Positions 1-5,158 of a stretch of DNA of 5,158 nt are shown in pieces (within the stretch, counting starts at the first letter, position 1; every line of letters starts with the position of its first letter). The notes below the pieces were generated by a model. It was not told where the DNA came from, searched no databases, and saw only the letters and a list, made by a program, of their open reading frames with translations. The DNA comes from a virus (taxonomy: Duplodnaviria; Heunggongvirae; Uroviricota; Caudoviricetes): the IMG/VR virus record IMGVR_UViG_3300015182_000011, one strand, 5' to 3'. Position numbers and translations under genes: made by a program.

Positions 1-1323
1 ATCCGTCAGGATGAGCTTATCCATCTCCGCCCACTTCCGGTAAAGTTCTGCCTGCTGCCGCGAGCATCGCTCCAGCCGTCCTTCCGGAAGCCAGAATTTA
101 AAATCAGCATGAACATGTCCGTTATCGGTTCGCCAGAGTTTTGCCGCCGCACAGATATCAATCTTATGAGCAAGGTCGACGCCGACCCACATGGGATATG
201 TTTTCAGCTCATGTTGTGGAGCAATGTATTCGCACTTCTCCCACTTAATCATATCCATCCAGGCAGATTCGGCAGTGACCCACACATTCATGTGTTTGGT
301 AAAAAAATTCACCCGCGCAGAGACCTGCTCCTTCGCTTTTTTCGCCAGACGACGCAGATCATCCCAGCGTTTACAGATGCCCAGGCCAGGATTCGCTTTC
401 TGCCAGACCGTTTCATCAAACGGATCATCTCCCTCATCGAGCGTGTAAATGATCGCAAAGTAGGAGTCGTCTTTTACCGCGCCCTCCACGTCGCTGTTAT
501 AGCCTCGCAATACCTTAATGGCGTAATCGCGCTGCTCGTAGCAAATCCCTTCCTTGTTAAAGCCAGCCGTGGTGATGCCAAATAACAGAGACTGCAGACG
601 GGCACCGGTTGCCGTTTCCAGAACGTCCCACACGTCACGGGTTTTATGAGCATGCAGCTCATCAATAATGGCGCAGTGGATGTTCAGACCGTCCAGGTTG
701 TTTGCATCCGAGGAAAGCGGTTCAAATTTTGATGCGCTCTGCTCCTGGTAAATCGCCAGCTTGTTGAAATCAAACAACCGCCCGAGTGTCGACCGGGCTT
801 TTCTGACCATATTTTTGGCGTCTTCAAACACAATTCTGGCCTGGTCACGCGTGGTTGCGGCTGAATACACCTCAGCCCCGCCTTCACCATCTGCCCCCGT
901 CATATACAGACCGATACCCGATGACAGGGTTGATTTTGCGTTTTTACGGGCAACTTCGTTGTATGCTGTCCGGAACCGGCGCACCATCACCGGGCGTCCA
1001 CTGCCATCGCTGCGCATGACAACTTCCCCGGTTTCTTCATTCACCAGCGGAATGACAAAACCAAAAATATTAATGAGGATAAACACATGCCAGTCCATCA
1101 ACTCAATGGGCTGACCTGCCAGCGCCCCTTTCACATGGGGTACAAATTTGTAGAAATTAAGGATGTGCTGTGCACGGGGTTCACTGAAATAAATCCCCCG
1201 CTCTTCGCCGTACTTCAGATCATCAAGAAAACGCTGGCAGGCCAGACGGACAAATTCGCCAGCAACAATTTCTCCTGCAACAACACGTTCGGCGTAGCGG
1301 ATCCCGTCAGCCACTTTTGCCAT
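1..1323 (-). CDS. terL: Phage terminase large subunit (HK97/Terminase_1-like), N-terminal 441 codons; 3' partial, C-terminus lies beyond position 1
   Basis: Checked codon by codon: no stop in the minus frame from ATG 1323..1321 to the window edge. Translation starts MAKVADGIRYAERVVAGEIVAGEFVRLACQRFLDDLKYGEE and contains a P-loop-like segment EVARKNAKST, matching large-terminase ATPase domains as I recall them. The ATG overlaps the upstream TerS stop (ATGA at 1320..1323), the usual terS-terL coupling. It is absent from the ORF track only because it has no in-window stop. Confidence 0.9.
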   Translation of the reverse strand, partial: MAKVADGIRYAERVVAGEIVAGEFVRLACQRFLDDLKYGEERGIYFSEPRAQHILNFYKFVPHVKGALAGQPIELMDWHVFILINIFGFVIPLVNEETGEVVMRSDGSGRPVMVRRFRTAYNEVARKNAKSTLSSGIGLYMTGADGEGGAEVYSAATTRDQARIVFEDAKNMVRKARSTLGRLFDFNKLAIYQEQSASKFEPLSSDANNLDGLNIHCAIIDELHAHKTRDVWDVLETATGARLQSLLFGITTAGFNKEGICYEQRDYAIKVLRGYNSDVEGAVKDDSYFAIIYTLDEGDDPFDETVWQKANPGLGICKRWDDLRRLAKKAKEQVSARVNFFTKHMNVWVTAESAWMDMIKWEKCEYIAPQHELKTYPMWVGVDLAHKIDICAAAKLWRTDNGHVHADFKFWLPEGRLERCSRQQAELYRKWAEMDKLILTD

Positions 1324-1805
1324 CAGTCTCTCGCTTTTAAAAGCTCTGCCAGCGGATCAACATCATCCGGTCCGGCGGTATTTACTTTCGCCCGGCTTGC
1401 CGGTGACATACCAAACTCTGCAAGCATCGCCCGAATCCGCTTCCAGGCATCAGCCTTCATCGCAGCAGCCGGGTGTGCCTTGATCAGCACATCGCCATTC
1501 TGCGTTTCCGTGCGGTAGGTATAACCCTCAACATCGAGTATTTCGCAGTGATGCCGGTATTCGGTGTAGGCTTCCACCAGTAACTCGAGCGCACGTGCAT
1601 CGAGCTGAGAAATGATCCCTTCCGCATTCAGCTCTTCCGCCATTCGCCTGAACCAGTACTTCCCCTGCGCCCCTAAATGTTGCGGAATTTTAGGGAGACC
1701 TTTTTCATCCTTTTTAGCGGTTTTTTTGGAGTCTTTAACTGGCCGCTTTGAGGGGTTACCTCGTATCAAATGCAGGCGTGGCGGGGTTTTCGGGGGTCCA
1801 GACAT
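1323..1805 (-). CDS. terS: Phage terminase small subunit (P27 family-like), 160 aa
   Basis: ORF-track ORF with ATG at 1805..1803 and TGA at 1325..1323. Basic N-terminus (MSGPPKTPPRLHLIRGNPSKRPVKDSKKTAKKDEKG) and the core GKYWFRRMAEELNAEGIISQLDARALELLVEAY resemble P27-family small terminases. It sits directly upstream of, and overlaps, the large terminase. Confidence 0.88.
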   Translation of the reverse strand: MSGPPKTPPRLHLIRGNPSKRPVKDSKKTAKKDEKGLPKIPQHLGAQGKYWFRRMAEELNAEGIISQLDARALELLVEAYTEYRHHCEILDVEGYTYRTETQNGDVLIKAHPAAAMKADAWKRIRAMLAEFGMSPASRAKVNTAGPDDVDPLAELLKARD

Positions 1806-1952
1806 AATCGATTTTACCTATCAATCATTTAATCACATTCCAAAAAAAAGTTTTCGAACCTGCGGCGATGCGAGGAAAGGTCAGGCGGCGGTACTGAGCA
1901 GCCAGGGTTGCAGAGATTTGACCTGCCCCTCCCCTACAGATGGGAACTGTTA
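1806..1952. other. Intergenic gap between HNH endonuclease and terS; candidate cos (packaging/cohesive-end) region
   Basis: 147-bp non-coding gap at the position where HK97-type phages carry cos (HNH - cos - terS - terL). It has an A8 tract (1852..1859) beside a GC-rich block that includes GGCGGCG at 1886..1892 (within caggcggcggtactg, 1883..1897), reminiscent of the GGGCGGCG core of the lambda cohesive end. The exact nick sites cannot be determined from sequence alone. Confidence 0.3.
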
Positions 1953-2303
1953 TCAATTGAGGCGTTCGCGCGCTGTTTTTGCTTTATGACAGGGCCAGCA
2001 CAGACTCTGCAGGTTACTGTCTGCATCCGTGCCACCATGAGCTTTCGGAATGATGTGGTCCACAGTTCTGGCTTCAACGGCTCTCCCATTGCGCAGGCAG
2101 TTCTGACACAGATGATTATCACGCTTCAGTATGCGCGCACGTATGGCATCCCATTTCGAGCCATAGCCACGCTGGTGGCGGCTCAGTCCGCGTTGATGCT
2201 GTACCCATCCTTCGCCACGATGTTTATCGCAGTAACCAGAACTGTCTGTGGTTGTACCTGCACATCCACGCTTACGGCAGGCGCGTGGGATTCGTGGGGG
2301 CAT
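1953..2303 (-). CDS. Phage HNH homing-type endonuclease (terminase-associated), about 116 aa
   Basis: The translation has the HNH/zinc-finger signature CQNC...VDHIIPKAHGGTDADSNLQSLCWPCH plus an N-terminal Cys cluster CRKRGCAGTTTDSSGYCDKH. I place the start at ATG 2303..2301, which has GGAG five nt upstream. The ORF-track start at 2402 is a TTG with no RBS, and ATG 2348 also lacks an RBS. The gene lies immediately upstream of cos/terS, as in HK97-like phages. Confidence 0.82.
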   Translation of the reverse strand: MPPRIPRACRKRGCAGTTTDSSGYCDKHRGEGWVQHQRGLSRHQRGYGSKWDAIRARILKRDNHLCQNCLRNGRAVEARTVDHIIPKAHGGTDADSNLQSLCWPCHKAKTARERLN

Positions 2304-2423
2304 ATGTACTCCAATGAAGAAGCCACCGACATAGCCTCCTCCATTCATAGTGAAACTATTTTCATCTACCCAGTAATGAATTCTTTGTAGAGTTGTGATC
2401 AATACAACTCACTAATGGAGAGG

Positions 2424-2828: not shown

Positions 2829-3122
2829 ATGAAAAAAATGTTGTTTTCTGCCGCTCTGGCAATGCTTATTACAGGATGTGCTCAACAGACGTTTACTGTT
2901 GGAAACAAACCGACAGCAGTAACACCAAAGGAAACCATCACCCATCATTTCTTCGTTTCGGGAATTGGACAGGAGAAAACTGTTGATGCAGCCAAAATTT
3001 GTGGCGGCGCAGAAAATGTTGTTAAAACAGAAACCCAGCAAACATTCGTAAATGGATTTCTCGGTTTTATTACTTTAGGCATTTATACTCCACTGGAAGC
3101 GCGTGTGTATTGCTCACAATAA
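2829..3122 (+). CDS. bor: Bor-family outer-membrane lipoprotein (lambda Bor-like serum-resistance protein), 97 aa
   Basis: From ATG 2829 the translation is MKKMLFSAALAMLITGCAQQTFTVGNKPTAVTPKETITHHFFVSGIGQEKTVDAAKICGGAENVVKTETQQTFVNGFLGFITLGIYTPLEARVYCSQ, with a lipobox LITGC and near-identity along its length to lambda Bor as I recall it. It is on the strand opposite the late genes and convergent with Rz, as in lambda. The ORF-track N-terminal extension (2781..2828) is rejected. Confidence 0.9.
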   Translation: MKKMLFSAALAMLITGCAQQTFTVGNKPTAVTPKETITHHFFVSGIGQEKTVDAAKICGGAENVVKTETQQTFVNGFLGFITLGIYTPLEARVYCSQ

Positions 3123-3132
3123 TTGCATGAGT

Positions 3133-3150
3133 TGCCCATCGATATGGGCA
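3133..3150. terminator. Hairpin (7-bp stem TGCCCAT/ATGGGCA, 4-nt loop) between the convergent bor and Rz genes; possible bidirectional terminator or transcript-stabilising element
   Basis: Read directly from the sequence at 3133..3150, inside the 31-bp gap between the bor stop (3122) and the Rz stop (3154). It has no flanking U-tract on either strand, so intrinsic-terminator function is uncertain. Confidence 0.3.
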
Positions 3151-3153
3151 GCT

Positions 3154-3615
3154 CTATCTGCACTGCTCATTAATATACTTCTGGGTTCCTTCCAGTTGTT
3201 TTTGCATTGTGATCAGCCTCTCTCTGAGGGTGAAATAATCCCGTTCAGCGGTGTCTGCCAGTCGGGGGCTGGTTGCATTATCCACGCCGGAGGCGGTGGT
3301 GGCTTCACGCACTGACTGACAGACTGCTTTGATGTGCAACCGACGACGACCAGCGGCAACATCAGCGCGCAGAGTTTCATTTTCAGCTTTCGCATTGGCT
3401 AATTCTCTCGAGTACTTTGCATCGAGTGCAGCAACATCACGCTGACGCTGCTGCATGTCAGCGATAGTGGCGATCGCCTGCTTCAGCTCACTGACTTTTT
3501 TATCACGCTGTTCTTTGTAGGCGATGGCGTTATCACGGTAATGATTGACCGCCCACGACAGGCAGACGATGATGCAGATAACCAAAGCATAAATAATCGC
3601 GGCGACTCTGCTCAC
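3154..3615 (-). CDS. Rz: Rz i-spanin (inner-membrane spanin subunit), 153 aa
   Basis: From GTG 3615..3613 the translation is [39 protein letters not shown]...[20 protein letters not shown]: an N-terminal TM helix followed by coiled coil, close to lambda Rz. The GTG start overlaps the endolysin stop (GTGA). The ORF-track TTG start at 3630 is rejected. Confidence 0.9.
3213..3395 (-). CDS. Rz1: Rz1 o-spanin (outer-membrane lipoprotein spanin subunit), 60 aa, fully embedded in Rz in another frame
   Basis: ATG at 3395..3393. Translation [60 protein letters not shown] has a lipobox (VVVGC) and a proline-rich segment, matching lambda Rz1. It is nested inside Rz in a different frame, the classic embedded spanin architecture. 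Confidence 0.85.
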
Positions 3616-4145
3616 TGCTCTATCCCCCAACAGGCTAATGCGCTTTCCTGGTCACGACGAATAACCTGTCCATAGCAGTTATTTGAACGTATGCGGCAAT
3701 CGCGCCCACCATCTTTTATCCACCAGCGAATCGCCTCGCATGCGCCCTTACGATCACCGGCATTCAGCCGCTTATAAAACGTCGACGGGAAACACTTACC
3801 GGGGCCAATGTTATAGGGACAGAATGACGCTATACCCGCTTTTTGTGGTTCGGTCAGTAGTACTTTAATATTGCGCTCCACCCATGCCAGCGCCTTATCA
3901 CGCTCAATGGCGTTGACCTGGTCGCATTTTTCCTTCGACAGTTTCATACCGGGAAAAACGGGTTTTCCATCCACCATCGTGGCACCCCGACAGATGGTCC
4001 AGATGCCGGACCCATCGCGGTATGCCGTTGTGTGGTTACCTTCTTTTTCATCCAGAAACTGGTCGAGAATATCAGGCGCGGGCGCACCGACGGCAATCAG
4101 TGCCAGAACGGCAGCCGACAGGCCGTATCTGATTTTTGCGTTCAT
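3612..4145 (-). CDS. R: SAR endolysin (phage lysozyme, T4-lysozyme/P21 R-like muramidase), 177 aa
   Basis: ATG at 4145..4143. The N-terminus has a weakly hydrophobic Ala/Gly-rich signal-anchor-release segment ([16 protein letters not shown]), followed by the catalytic E-x8-D-x5-T arrangement ([16 protein letters not shown]) typical of phage lysozymes. It is followed directly by Rz/Rz1. Confidence 0.9.
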
Positions 4146-4208
4146 GGATATTTATCAGGATTTATCGGTTTCTGCCCACGGACAGGTTTATCTGTTCCGG
4201 TCAGTGAC

Positions 4209-4559
4209 TTAAGGTTGTGATTCCGGAGGAGTCTTCAGAGAACCAGTAATTCTTCCCGGTAGCTTTCCTTTGTAGGTTATCCATACATTCTGCGCCTCTA
4301 AAATTACGGGGCGCTTTTCCGGCGACTGCTCATCCCCTTCACATAACCCGGCAGCAACATCCAGGAAGACCTGTCTGATACTCATTCTGGCTGCTGCCTC
4401 ATAAAACTCCGGCGCGGCACCTTCAACACGGTCCAGCGAGATGTCCAGGTCAAAAATTTCACCGTCAAAGCGTTTTTTGTCCCGTAACGCTAAAGTTACC
4501 GTAACTTTATTCTCAAAATTGCGGATCCCTTTCACAATCAGTTCATAGTTTTGAGTCAT
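4209..4559 (-). CDS. ydfR: Unknown-function protein, YdfR-like (DUF1327-like), 116 aa, inserted between holin and endolysin
   Basis: ATG at 4559..4557 with GGAG 9 nt upstream, lying inside the holin 3' end; only 4 nt separate the holin stop from this start. The translation MTQNYELIVKGIRNFENKVTVTLALRDKKRFDGEIFDLDISLDRVEGAAPEFYEAAARMSIRQVFLDVAAGL... is soluble and acidic, with no TM segment or signal peptide. The same holin - ydfR - lysozyme position occurs in the E. coli K-12 Qin prophage (essQ-ydfR-rrrQ). The symbol is assigned by position and recalled family resemblance, not by a search. Confidence 0.78.
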   Translation of the reverse strand: MTQNYELIVKGIRNFENKVTVTLALRDKKRFDGEIFDLDISLDRVEGAAPEFYEAAARMSIRQVFLDVAAGLCEGDEQSPEKRPVILEAQNVWITYKGKLPGRITGSLKTPPESQP

Positions 4560-4563
4560 TGAA

Positions 4564-4779
4564 TTACTCTCCCCGTGCCGCCTTACGACGGTCCTCTCTG
4601 ATTTTGAAATACAGGTTAGTCAGATATGTCAGCAGCCCAAACAGCAGACTCCCCAGCACGCCTATTGCCGCCCACTGAGACGGGGAAACCCTGTCCAGCA
4701 ACTGCAGGAACCAGTAGCCCGTTCCCACCGCTGACGTGGTGTATGACACACCTGTTGTGATTTTTTCCATCTGGTCCAT
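4564..4779 (-). CDS. S: Class II holin / pinholin (phage 21 S-like), 71 aa, with dual-start motif (Met1 and Met4)
   Basis: From ATG 4779..4777 the translation is [71 protein letters not shown]: two TM segments and a C-terminus near-identical to S21 as I recall it. A second in-frame ATG at 4770..4768 forms the dual-start pair. A GGGAGA RBS lies upstream. The ORF-track GTG extension to 4884 would read through the terminator hairpin and is rejected. Confidence 0.85.
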
Positions 4780-4811
4780 ACCCCGTCTCCCGTTATCCGG
4801 AAGCTGACAAC

Positions 4812-4843
4812 AATAAAAAAGCCACCAGTTAACTACTGATGGC
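4812..4843 (-). terminator. Rho-independent terminator on the minus strand (tR'-like, between the late promoter and the holin)
   Basis: The minus-strand RNA would form an 8-bp stem (GCCAUCAG / CUGGUGGC, with one G-U wobble), a 7-nt loop and a UUUUUUAUU tail (plus 4812..4820 is aataaaaaa). The stem is better paired on the minus transcript than on the plus. It lies 33 nt upstream of the holin start, matching the lambdoid PR'-qut-tR'-S layout. Confidence 0.6.
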
Positions 4844-5124
4844 TCTGATAACTCATGCAAGCGTCTCAGACGATCCACTGACACTACCGGTGAGTTTAAC
4901 GATACCTTCCATTTGACTGGCTCACTTTTTATGATGATGCCGGTGTATTTATCTCCAGCACCAGACTTTCTATCTCAACGCCATACGTTGCATTTTTGGT
5001 AATATCCGTCAGCGTCAGTGCATTTAGTCCCACTGCCAGACCGTCTTTTATGGTCTGGAATGCCGGGCCAGTACGATGACGTAGTATCACTCCGGCTCAG
5101 TTGCACCACTGACCACCACATCAC
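4844..5124 (-). promoter_or_regulatory. Late-gene leader region expected to hold the Q-dependent late promoter (PR'-like) and qut site; exact elements not resolved
   Basis: Non-coding region upstream of the tR'-like terminator and holin. The best sigma70-like candidate on the minus strand is TTGAGA (4978..4973), a 17-nt spacer, then GAGATA (4955..4950), a weak -10. Position and lambdoid synteny support the call; the motif match does not. Confidence 0.3.
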
Positions 5125-5158
5125 AGATCGGAAGAGCGTCGTGTAGGGAAAGAGTGTA
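5125..5158 (+). other. Illumina TruSeq adapter sequence (non-biological, untrimmed contig end)
   Basis: 5125..5158 is AGATCGGAAGAGCGTCGTGTAGGGAAAGAGTGTA, an exact match to the first 34 nt of the reverse complement of the TruSeq universal adapter, recalled from memory. Confidence 0.92.

What the first reader, a model, noticed from the sequence alone, without database searches (positions are those of the whole stretch)
4209..4559. Unknown-function YdfR-like gene translationally wedged between pinholin and SAR endolysin
Canonical phage-21-type lysis cassettes run S-R-Rz/Rz1 with nothing between holin and endolysin. Here a 116-aa soluble, acidic protein with no TM segment or signal peptide sits there, starting 4 nt after the holin stop with its RBS inside the holin coding sequence. 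That forces co-transcription and probably translational coupling with the holin. The family (DUF1327, as in Qin ydfR) has no assigned function to my knowledge. Candidate roles are a lysis-timing modulator, an endolysin or holin partner, or a moron such as an anti-defence or superinfection-exclusion factor riding on late expression.
Basis: partly seen in the sequence, partly recalled or inferred. Interest (0 to 1): 0.65.

Follow-up and report, generated by a model that had tools for sequence, protein, structure and literature searches.

The report
YdfR gene inside phage lysis cassette
The small gene wedged between the holin and endolysin is a real, conserved YdfR/DUF1327 gene, but this layout is common and already annotated in E. 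coli prophages, including K-12, and only its function is still open.

Summary
A 116-aa soluble, acidic ORF lies on the minus strand at 4209-4559. Its ATG is 4 nt after the stop of an S21-type class II holin, its Shine-Dalgarno sequence is inside the holin's last codons, and a SAR endolysin starts 63 nt downstream. It matches Pfam DUF1327 at E=1e-40.

The premise that this is unusual does not hold. The window is identical, apart from one SNP, to GenBank phages that annotate the gene as "putative YdfR family protein". K-12 Qin has the same essQ-ydfR-rrrQ order. YdfR-like DNA is in 4349 of 5426 complete E. coli genomes. In 228 of 228 related viral contigs it sits directly behind the holin.

Phage 933W places R in the same 4-nt coupled slot, so ydfR is dispensable for lysis. 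The shared core is a 70-aa beta-beta-beta-alpha domain under purifying selection, followed by variable C-terminal modules. Distant stand-alone relatives sit among tail genes.

No fold or profile match assigns a function. The only experimental lead is a 2026 paper in which K-12 YdfR residues 1-72 bind the catalytic half of RNase E; the window protein is 77% identical over that region.

Best guess, at low confidence: a late-expressed cytoplasmic accessory factor that targets host RNase E, not a core lysis protein. Already known; modest interest.

The parts
4818..4846 (-). Terminator-like hairpin (12-bp stem followed by a T run) about 40 nt upstream of the holin start. Late transcription would have to read through it. 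Context only.
4564..4779 (-). Class II, S21-type (pinholin-type) holin of 71 aa. It has a second in-frame Met at codon 4 (MDQM...).
   Evidence: PF04971 E=9e-33; phrog_9876/phrog_20 'holin'; sequence
4567..4574 (-). Shine-Dalgarno-like GGGGAGAG inside the last holin codons, serving the ydfR start. The same motif serves R in phage 933W.
4560..4563 (-). 4-nt spacer (TTCA) between the holin TAA and the ydfR ATG.
   Evidence: The same 4-nt gap is found in 222 of 228 related loci.
4335..4559 (-). ydfR codons 1-75. This is the conserved DUF1327 core domain: three antiparallel strands plus one long helix, with a conserved (F/Y)YE motif. It is the only part shared by all family members.
   Evidence: AF2 model m05cbde116ed2, pLDDT 88.4, pTM 0.74; alignment A3; dN/dS 0.19-0.28; 77% identity to K-12-type YdfR residues 1-74
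4209..4334 (-). ydfR codons 76-116 plus the stop. This linker/tail module is predicted with low confidence. Homology to the long family members ends at about codon 112.
   Evidence: pLDDT below 50 for residues 72-116; breakpoints; dN/dS 0.43-0.56
4411..4411 (-). The single nucleotide difference from the GenBank phage records. It changes the nearly invariant Leu50 to Pro at the N-terminus of the helix.
   Evidence: None of 70 related loci has Pro here. L50 is nearly invariant in alignments A1/A2.
4146..4208 (-). 63-nt spacer between ydfR and R. It shows no significant RNA structure, and there is no Shine-Dalgarno motif in front of the R ATG. In some relatives this position holds an extra opposite-strand ORF or further ydfR modules.
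   Evidence: fold z-score -0.19
3612..4145 (-). SAR-type endolysin R, 177 aa.
   Evidence: PF00959 E=1.5e-23; phrog_7 'endolysin'; N-terminal Gly/Ala-rich segment and E-X8-D-X5-T triad read
3154..3615 (-). Rz i-spanin. Its start overlaps the R stop.
   Evidence: PF03245 E=1e-49; annotation of the identical phage record
3213..3395 (-). Rz1 o-spanin lipoprotein, embedded in Rz.
   Evidence: PF06085 E=2.8e-20
2829..3122 (+). bor lipoprotein gene, on the opposite strand. It marks the end of the lysis cassette.
   Evidence: PF06291 E=3.8e-30

Best explanation
**What it is (near certain).** This is a YdfR/DUF1327-family gene in its usual place, the translationally coupled slot directly 3' of a class II holin gene in the late operon of an Escherichia lambdoid phage or prophage. 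It is an accessory gene and not part of the core lysis machinery.

**How it most likely works (inferred, low confidence).**
1. It has no promoter of its own, and its start site sits 4 nt after the holin stop. The protein is therefore made only late in lytic growth, together with and roughly in proportion to the holin.
2. The product stays in the cytoplasm.
3. Its conserved, acidic, 70-residue beta-beta-beta-alpha N-domain acts as a binding module for a host factor. The best candidate target is the catalytic N-terminal half of RNase E (and RNase G).
4. Through that contact it would adjust RNA decay at the end of the infection cycle.
5. The variable C-terminal modules, which are truncated in this allele, would add further functions or are being lost.

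**Side effect of its presence.** The endolysin gene loses the coupled, SD-bearing start that it has in ydfR-less cassettes such as 933W.
For: **Identity and placement**
- PF07041 match at 138 bits.
- 100% DNA identity, apart from one SNP, to phage records annotated 'YdfR family protein'.
- Same order in K-12 Qin, O157:H7 and UTI89.
- 228/228 loci have a holin immediately upstream, and 212/213 have the SAR lysozyme downstream.
- The gene also sits behind an unrelated holin family, PF16080.

**Dispensable for lysis**
- 933W has S followed directly by R at the identical junction.
- Only 101 phage records encode YdfR, whereas 550 match the cassette region.

**Late expression only**
- No promoter or terminator on the gene strand within the cassette.

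**Cytoplasmic**
- No TM segment or signal peptide; pI 5.2.

**Protein-level function**
- dN/dS of 0.19-0.28 on the N-domain.
- Confident fold, pLDDT 88.

**Not tied to lysis over deeper evolution**
- Stand-alone 72-76-aa relatives lie between tail genes M/L and I/J, or after the spanin gene.

**RNase E link (literature only)**
- PMC13232886 recovered K-12 YdfR(1-72) three times in a genomic two-hybrid screen.
- Full-length YdfR gave two-hybrid signal with Rne(1-597).
- Strep-YdfR co-purified Rne(1-598)-FLAG and RNA.
- The window protein is 77% identical and 92% similar to that region.
Against: **Weaknesses in the RNase E link**
- It rests on one paper and on the K-12 cryptic-prophage allele.
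- The co-purification came from crude lysate without nuclease treatment, so it may be bridged by RNA.
- Full-length YdfR gave signal with only one Rne construct.
- Overexpression caused no growth defect and changed very few transcripts. This argues against strong modulation of an essential enzyme.

**No structural support**

**Placement is also what a lysis-linked role predicts**
- In Escherichia the gene is always placed between holin and endolysin, even with two different holin families.

**This allele may be impaired**
- It carries a Pro at the nearly invariant Leu50.
Confidence: 0.35

Rival explanations
1. YdfR is a cytoplasmic lysis-timing factor. It binds the cytoplasmic C-terminal tail of the holin, or the cytoplasmic or N-terminal part of the SAR endolysin before export. 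In this way it delays or sharpens triggering. The analogy is functional: T4 RIII (a cytoplasmic antiholin cofactor) or mycobacteriophage Ms6 Gp1 (an endolysin chaperone). Both comparisons are from my own knowledge.
For: - In Escherichia the gene always sits between holin and endolysin: 228/228 and 212/213 loci.
- The same slot is used behind an unrelated holin family, PF16080.
- The 4-nt coupling would give a fixed stoichiometry with the holin.
- The holin C-terminal tail (LYFKIxEDxRKAARGE) is nearly invariant across all the holin types it pairs with.
- The K-12 ydfR deletion appears in the hit lists of an envelope-integrity screen (supplement of PMC3879167).
Against: - Cassettes with the same holin and endolysin work without it (933W).
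- YdfR N-domain types and holin types are freely shuffled.
- Distant relatives sit among tail genes, far from any holin.
- It has no TM segment and no similarity to any known lysis regulator family.
- The Keio phenotype could be a polar effect of the cassette on the downstream lysozyme gene rrrQ. This is my inference and was not tested.
Confidence: 0.25
2. YdfR is an anti-defence or inter-phage competition factor that rides on late expression. Its small acidic domain would inhibit a host or rival-phage enzyme other than RNase E.
For: - Small, acidic, fast-diverging N-domain with deep allelic types (dS saturated between types).
- Modular C-terminal swapping.
- Restriction to one genus.
- Placement in accessory slots in distant relatives.
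Against: - Late expression is an odd time for anti-defence.
- No PADLOC hit, although that library covers defence systems and not anti-defence proteins.
- There is no experimental hint.
Confidence: 0.12
3. The gene mainly acts in cis as an expression spacer. By occupying the holin-coupled start site, it uncouples the endolysin from the holin and lowers or retimes R translation. On this view the protein itself matters little.
For: - In 933W, R uses the SD inside S.
- In the window, R is 63 nt downstream of ydfR, with no SD and no RNA structure.
- The sequence just upstream of the R ATG is shared by ydfR-containing cassettes.
Against: - Purifying selection acts on the protein sequence (dN/dS 0.19-0.28).
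- The fold is conserved and confidently predicted.
- Homologues persist outside lysis cassettes.

All three points indicate a protein-level function.
Confidence: 0.08

Closest known systems
E. coli K-12 Qin prophage YdfR (P76160, 103 aa; essQ-ydfR-rrrQ)
   Same: - Same Pfam family.
- 77% identity over residues 1-74.
- Same 4-nt junction after a 71-aa class II holin, and the same position upstream of the lysozyme gene.
   Different: - The K-12 allele diverges after about residue 70 into an unrelated C-terminus.
- Its stop overlaps the rrrQ start (ATGA), so it is coupled on both sides.
- The window allele carries the 'EGDEQSPEKRP...KTPP' linker module and a 63-nt spacer before R.
YdfR-family genes of phages vB_EcoS-640R1/733R4/716R1/813R8, H-19B, BP-4795, mEp460 and Stx2 phage 86
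   Same: - The vB_EcoS records match the window at 100% over 2 kb, apart from one SNP, and already annotate the gene.
- The other phages carry 62-93% identical proteins by tblastn. Gene order was confirmed in the 640R1 record, and the record features listed for Stx2 phage 86 also include ant and r.
   Different: The window has L50P. Stx2 phage 86 also has an ant gene in the cassette.
Phage 21 and 933W S-R-Rz/Rz1 cassette (pinholin plus SAR endolysin)
   Same: The holin family, the endolysin type, the spanins and bor are the same. The SD-TAA-N4-ATG junction downstream of S is identical.
   Different: In 933W the gene in the coupled slot is R itself, and there is no ydfR.
Phage-encoded RNase E modulators (T7 gp0.7, T4 Srd, phiKZ Dip; own knowledge)
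   Same: There is a possible functional analogy: a small phage protein that contacts RNase E. This has been reported only for K-12 YdfR (PMC13232886).
   Different: - Those proteins act early or throughout infection, and most of them target the C-terminal scaffold.
- YdfR is a late gene and was reported to bind the catalytic half.
dsRBD and HicB-like beta-beta-beta-alpha folds
   Different: It lacks the N-terminal helix of a dsRBD, it is acidic and not basic, and the scores are in the generic range.

Membership tests
DUF1327 / YdfR family (PF07041) | Profile match above Pfam's gathering score | tested here: met
   138.1 bits against a cut-off of 25, E=1.2e-40, residues 1-112. Also phrog_406 and phrog_2091 at E about 1e-67.
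DUF1327 / YdfR family (PF07041) | Conserved N-terminal core with the (F/Y)YE motif at the start of the helix | tested here: met
   Y53 and E54 are invariant across 29 diverse members. The beta-beta-beta-alpha model has pLDDT 88.
DUF1327 / YdfR family (PF07041) | Usual genomic position in Escherichia: directly after a class II holin and before the lysozyme gene | tested here: met
   Window; 228/228 and 212/213 related loci; K-12, O157 and UTI89.
Antiholins and membrane lysis regulators (S21-71, T4 RI, P1 LydB, P2 LysA) | A transmembrane or signal segment, or homology to such a family | tested here: not met
   The maximum 19-residue hydropathy is 1.03. DUF1327 is the only Pfam hit.
Cytoplasmic holin or endolysin partners (T4 RIII, Ms6 Gp1) | Physical binding to the holin's cytoplasmic domain or to the endolysin | not testable with these tools
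   No complex prediction or binding assay was available. Allele types of YdfR and holin are shuffled, which neither proves nor excludes binding to the invariant holin tail.
Moron (Hendrix definition: autonomous unit with its own promoter and terminator, expressed from the prophage) | Own promoter and terminator flanking the gene | tested here: not met
   No promoter-like or terminator-like site lies on the gene strand between 4146 and 4779. The start is coupled to the holin. This was a simple consensus scan only.
Phage RNase E-binding proteins | Direct binding to RNase E | not testable with these tools
   Reported for K-12 YdfR residues 1-72 by two-hybrid and lysate co-purification (PMC13232886). 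The window protein is 77% identical in that region.
Phage RNase E-binding proteins | Sequence or fold homology to Dip, Srd or gp0.7 | tested here: not met
   [not shown]
Known anti-phage defence proteins (PADLOC) | Profile match | tested here: not met
   No hits at E up to 1.
dsRBD | alpha-beta-beta-beta-alpha topology with a basic RNA-binding surface | tested here: not met
   [not shown]

The most novel reading that the evidence does not exclude
The conserved YdfR N-domain is a phage-encoded ligand of the catalytic core of host RNase E/G. It is delivered in holin-linked amounts at the very end of the lytic cycle, to stabilise the long late transcript or to reshape RNA decay just before lysis. 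If so, this would be an RNA-decay modulator in a temperate lambdoid coliphage, carried by about 80% of E. coli genomes and hidden inside the lysis cassette.
Probability: 0.2. Interest if true: 0.6.

Novelty: already known. Interest (0 to 1): 0.28.

Why it matters
A gene present in most E. coli genomes, often in several copies, still has no established function, even though it sits in the middle of a very well-studied gene cassette. Working out its role would matter in three ways. It could add a fourth player to the control of pinholin/SAR-endolysin lysis. It could reveal a lambdoid-phage handle on RNase E. It could also bear on toxin release from Stx1a and Stx2c phages, which mostly carry the gene, whereas Stx2a phages mostly do not. 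The window adds no new biology to that question. It is one more copy of a known, annotated arrangement.

Tried and rejected
**Function from sequence profiles.** Nothing beyond DUF1327.
- NCBIfam and PADLOC gave no hit, and all PHROGs hits are 'unknown function'.
- PDB sequence searches with the single protein and with a 29-member profile found nothing credible.

**Function from fold.**
- The full-length AF2 model was poor (pLDDT 62).
- The N-domain model was good (pLDDT 88).
- Foldseek against viral structures gave no hit at E <= 0.001.
- The afdb50 library was not available.

**Remote homologues.** An exhaustive profile search of 1.84 billion representatives found only 92 proteins. All are DUF1327-like and none is annotated.

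**C-terminal domain of the long variants (296-329 aa).** No Pfam or PDB match.

**RNA element in the 63-nt spacer.** Rejected, z-score -0.19.

**Convergent small ORFs next to DUF1327 in relatives.** They fall into at least five families with no detectable mutual homology by BLASTP or thin-profile hhalign. A conserved two-gene module is therefore not established, and the window has no such ORF.

**Literature.** 'DUF1327' occurs in one comparative-genomics paper only. A survey of Stx-phage lysis cassettes does not mention the gene.

Full report

Yes. On the minus strand, an ATG at 4559 opens a 116-codon ORF that ends with TAA at 4211-4209. The ORF immediately upstream ends with TAA at 4566-4564. 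It encodes a 71-aa protein that matches PF04971, 'Bacteriophage P21 holin S', at E=9e-33.

The junction reads GGCACGGGGAGAG-TAA-TTCA-ATG. That is a 4-nt gap, with a purine-rich Shine-Dalgarno-like run inside the last holin codons.

Sixty-three nucleotides downstream of the ydfR stop begins a 177-aa PF00959 lysozyme. It has a Gly/Ala-rich N-terminal segment and an E35-X8-D44-X5-T50 triad, both read. These are the hallmarks of a SAR endolysin. After it come Rz, with Rz1 embedded, and then an opposite-strand bor gene.

The 116-aa protein matches PF07041 (DUF1327) at 138 bits against a cut-off of 25. Its pI is 5.2, and no 19-residue window is hydrophobic enough for a membrane segment.

A consensus scan finds no promoter-like or terminator-like site on the gene strand between the holin start and the endolysin. 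The only terminator-like hairpin lies upstream of the holin, at 4846-4818.

The one omission is the strand.

**2. Is it unusual?**

No.

- **GenBank phages.** Window positions 3100-5120 are 100% identical to four deposited Escherichia phages (vB_EcoS-733R4, 640R1, 716R1, 813R8). These already annotate the gene as 'putative YdfR family protein', between 'holin/antiholin component S' and 'lysozyme R'.
- **Well-known strains.** The same order is found in E. coli K-12 Qin: holin, ydfR 4 nt later, and rrrQ overlapping the ydfR stop. It is also found in O157:H7 and UTI89.
- **Named phages.** tblastn finds the protein in 101 phage records, including H-19B, BP-4795, mEp460, YYZ-2008 and Stx2 phage 86.
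- **Viral contigs.** I fetched 240 IMG/VR loci representing three allele groups and scored the neighbours. All 228 loci with enough upstream sequence have a class II holin ending just before ydfR. The gap is 4 nt in 222, 3 nt in 5 and 102 nt in 1. Of 213 loci with enough downstream sequence, 212 have the SAR-type lysozyme.
- **Complete genomes.** In 5426 complete E. coli genomes, ydfR-like DNA occurs at 8617 places in 4349 genomes. Holin-like DNA occurs at 13417 places in 4296 genomes. By this rough blastn count, more than half of such cassettes carry ydfR.
- **Taxonomic range.** Among one genome per species for 185,579 species, the close family appears only in Escherichia and Shigella. Two MAG contigs also match and are probably mis-binned.

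**3. Anatomy of the slot**

Phage 933W lacks ydfR. There the S gene ends ...GGCACGGGGAGAG-TAA-GCTG-ATG, and that ATG is the start of R. So ydfR occupies exactly the coupled start site that R uses in ydfR-less cassettes.

In the window, R sits 63 nt further on. It is preceded by ...GATAAATATCC-ATG with no Shine-Dalgarno motif, and this spacer has no significant RNA structure (z=-0.19). The stretch just upstream of the R ATG is shared with K-12, UTI89 and the long-form loci.

Two things follow:

- ydfR is dispensable for lysis by this type of cassette.
- Its presence changes how R is translated.

**4. Anatomy of the protein family**

Alignment of diverse members shows a modular family.

- **Core.** Residues 1 to about 72 are shared by every member. 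Y53 and E54 are invariant.
- **Linker.** A module covering about residues 73-112 (EGDEQSPEKRP...KTPP) is present in most Escherichia members but not in the K-12 type.
- **Optional C-terminal modules.** Some forms add a coiled-coil segment and a further C-terminal domain of about 130 aa, giving proteins of 176, 211, 268, 296 and 329 aa. These C-terminal parts match no Pfam or PDB entry.

The window allele is a short form. DNA homology to the long forms stops at about codon 112 and resumes about 6-27 nt before the R start.

With a diverse alignment, AlphaFold2 predicts the core confidently (pLDDT 88.4, pTM 0.74). It has three antiparallel strands (5-14, 18-27, 34-43) and one long helix (50-74). 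The tail from residue 76 to 116 is predicted poorly.

The core is under purifying selection, with dN/dS of 0.19-0.28. Synonymous divergence between allele types is saturated (dS 1.6-2.9). The adjacent linker has dS of about 0.15. There is therefore a recombination joint near codon 70.

YdfR core types and holin types occur in several combinations.

The window differs from the deposited phages by a single base. It changes the nearly invariant Leu50 to Pro at the N-terminal end of the helix. None of 70 related loci has this change. It may be a sequencing error or an impaired allele.

**5. Relatives outside the slot**

An exhaustive profile search of 1.84 billion cluster representatives returned only 92 proteins. 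They include stand-alone 72-76-aa versions that are 25-35% identical to the window core. Their contexts differ from the window:

- between lambda-like tail genes M and L (L082, L087, L088);
- between tail genes I and J (L266);
- after the endolysin and spanin genes and before the terminase gene (L263);
- about 550 nt upstream of two unrelated holin genes (L085).

A closer 72-aa relative lies between a PF16080-family holin and the lysozyme gene (L269-L271).

So the domain is not bound to S21-type holins. At greater evolutionary distance it is not bound to the lysis cassette at all.

**6. What does it do?**

The databases give nothing:

- Pfam lists a DUF and the PHROGs hits are 'unknown function'.
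- NCBIfam and PADLOC give no hit.
- There is no PDB relative by sequence.
- Foldseek against viral models finds nothing at E <= 0.001.

The literature holds one substantive lead, Gopel et al., RNA Biol 2026 (PMC13232886).

- They recovered K-12 YdfR residues 1-72 three times in a genomic two-hybrid screen with RNase G as bait.
- They found stronger signals with RNase E constructs that contain the catalytic half.
- They co-purified FLAG-Rne(1-598) and DNase-resistant nucleic acid with Strep-YdfR from lysates.
- They also report that overexpression caused no growth defect and changed very few transcripts.
- The YdfR co-purification was not repeated with nuclease-treated pure proteins.

The window protein is 77% identical and 92% similar to the K-12-type protein over residues 1-74. 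This is the region that paper maps as sufficient for binding.

Two weaker literature signals exist:

- The Keio ydfR mutant appears in the hit lists of an envelope-integrity screen (supplement of PMC3879167). I suspect this is a polar effect on the downstream lysozyme gene. That is an inference and was not tested.
- Overexpression gave a 3-fold rise in streptomycin MIC in a plasmid-library screen (PMC12924614).

**7. Best explanation and rivals**

The parts that are shown:

- It is a YdfR-family gene.
- It is expressed only as part of the late lysis transcript and is probably coupled to holin translation.
- It encodes a cytoplasmic protein with a selected, folded 70-aa core.
- It is not required for lysis by this cassette type.

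The inferred part is the target. I favour a host-factor-binding accessory protein with RNase E as the best candidate (confidence about 0.35 for the whole statement). This is the only hypothesis with any experimental support, and that support maps to the one domain all members share.

The main rival is a cytoplasmic lysis-timing factor that acts on the holin tail or on the endolysin before export (about 0.25). It is supported by the strict placement in Escherichia, including behind a second holin family. It is weakened by ydfR-less cassettes, by shuffled allele pairings and by tail-region relatives.

An anti-defence or competition role (about 0.12) and a mainly cis-acting expression-spacer role (about 0.08) are less likely. 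Purifying selection on the protein argues against the spacer role.

**8. Comparison with what is known, and novelty**

The gene is a member of DUF1327/YdfR by every test I could apply. It is not a classical moron, because it has no promoter or terminator of its own. It is not a membrane antiholin. It has no detectable relationship to known RNase E modulators or defence proteins.

The arrangement has been in GenBank since the K-12 genome and is annotated in records identical to this window. The finding is therefore already known.

What remains open is the function of a very widespread gene. That question is of moderate interest, but this window does not bring it closer to an answer.

Noticed in passing
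window 5125-5158: The last 34 bases (AGATCGGAAGAGCGTCGTGTAGGGAAAGAGTGTA) are an Illumina TruSeq adapter sequence, recognised from my own knowledge. The contig end is therefore an untrimmed-adapter artefact and not phage DNA. Homology to the deposited phages was confirmed as far as 5120, the end of the query.
   Followed up: partly
window 4411 (ydfR codon 50): This is the only base that differs from the otherwise identical GenBank phages. It turns the nearly invariant Leu50 into Pro at the start of the long helix. It was not seen in any of 70 related loci. It could be a sequencing error or a damaged allele.
   Followed up: yes
L082-L086, L261-L268; also L090 2811-3083, L269 3465-3725 and L270 1768-2028: In most loci of distant DUF1327 relatives, and in some E. 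coli loci such as UTI89, a gene on the opposite strand (70-100 aa in most; 186 aa in L268) converges on the 3' end of the DUF1327 gene. The partners tested fall into at least five families of unknown function (PHROGs 2411, 10490, 25324, 6806 and one with no hit), with no detectable mutual homology. The window lacks such an ORF.
   Followed up: partly
L109, L135-L165 and others (IMG/VR loci): Long YdfR variants of 268-329 aa carry a coiled-coil segment and an extra C-terminal domain of about 130 aa. This extra region matches nothing in Pfam or the PDB; PHROGs gives phrog_1085, unknown function. The 116-aa window form looks like a truncated version that ends at about codon 112.
   Followed up: partly
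window 4143-4160, compared with L089 3030-3055: In ydfR-containing cassettes the endolysin start has no Shine-Dalgarno motif (...AAATATCC-ATG). In 933W, R starts 4 nt after S and uses the GGGGAGAG inside S. The presence of ydfR should therefore change the S:R translation ratio.
   Followed up: partly
phage collection: YdfR is encoded in 41 Stx1a-converting and 15 Stx2c-converting phage records but in only 2 Stx2a-converting records. The lysis region as a whole matched 47, 17 and 124 records of those groups. This probably reflects phage lineage, but it could bear on toxin release.
   Followed up: no
window 4818-4846 (minus strand): A strong terminator-like hairpin (12-bp stem plus a T run) lies about 40 nt upstream of the holin start, so late transcription must read through it.
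   Followed up: no
window 4768-4779: The holin starts MDQMEK. The second Met matches the dual-start layout of S21, but residue 2 is Asp and not the Lys of the S21-type MKSM motif seen in the other holin types paired with YdfR. The longer product may therefore not behave as a charge-based antiholin. This is my inference.
   Followed up: no
L257 and L259: Contigs assigned to a Veillonella parvula MAG and a Bacillota MAG carry Escherichia-type ydfR at 73-78% identity. These are most likely mis-binned enterobacterial phage contigs.
   Followed up: no
window 1323-2402 (minus strand): An HNH endonuclease gene (1953-2402) lies just upstream of a Terminase_4-type small terminase subunit gene (1323-1805). 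This is the common HNH-terminase pairing of cos-type phages. It is ordinary.
   Followed up: no
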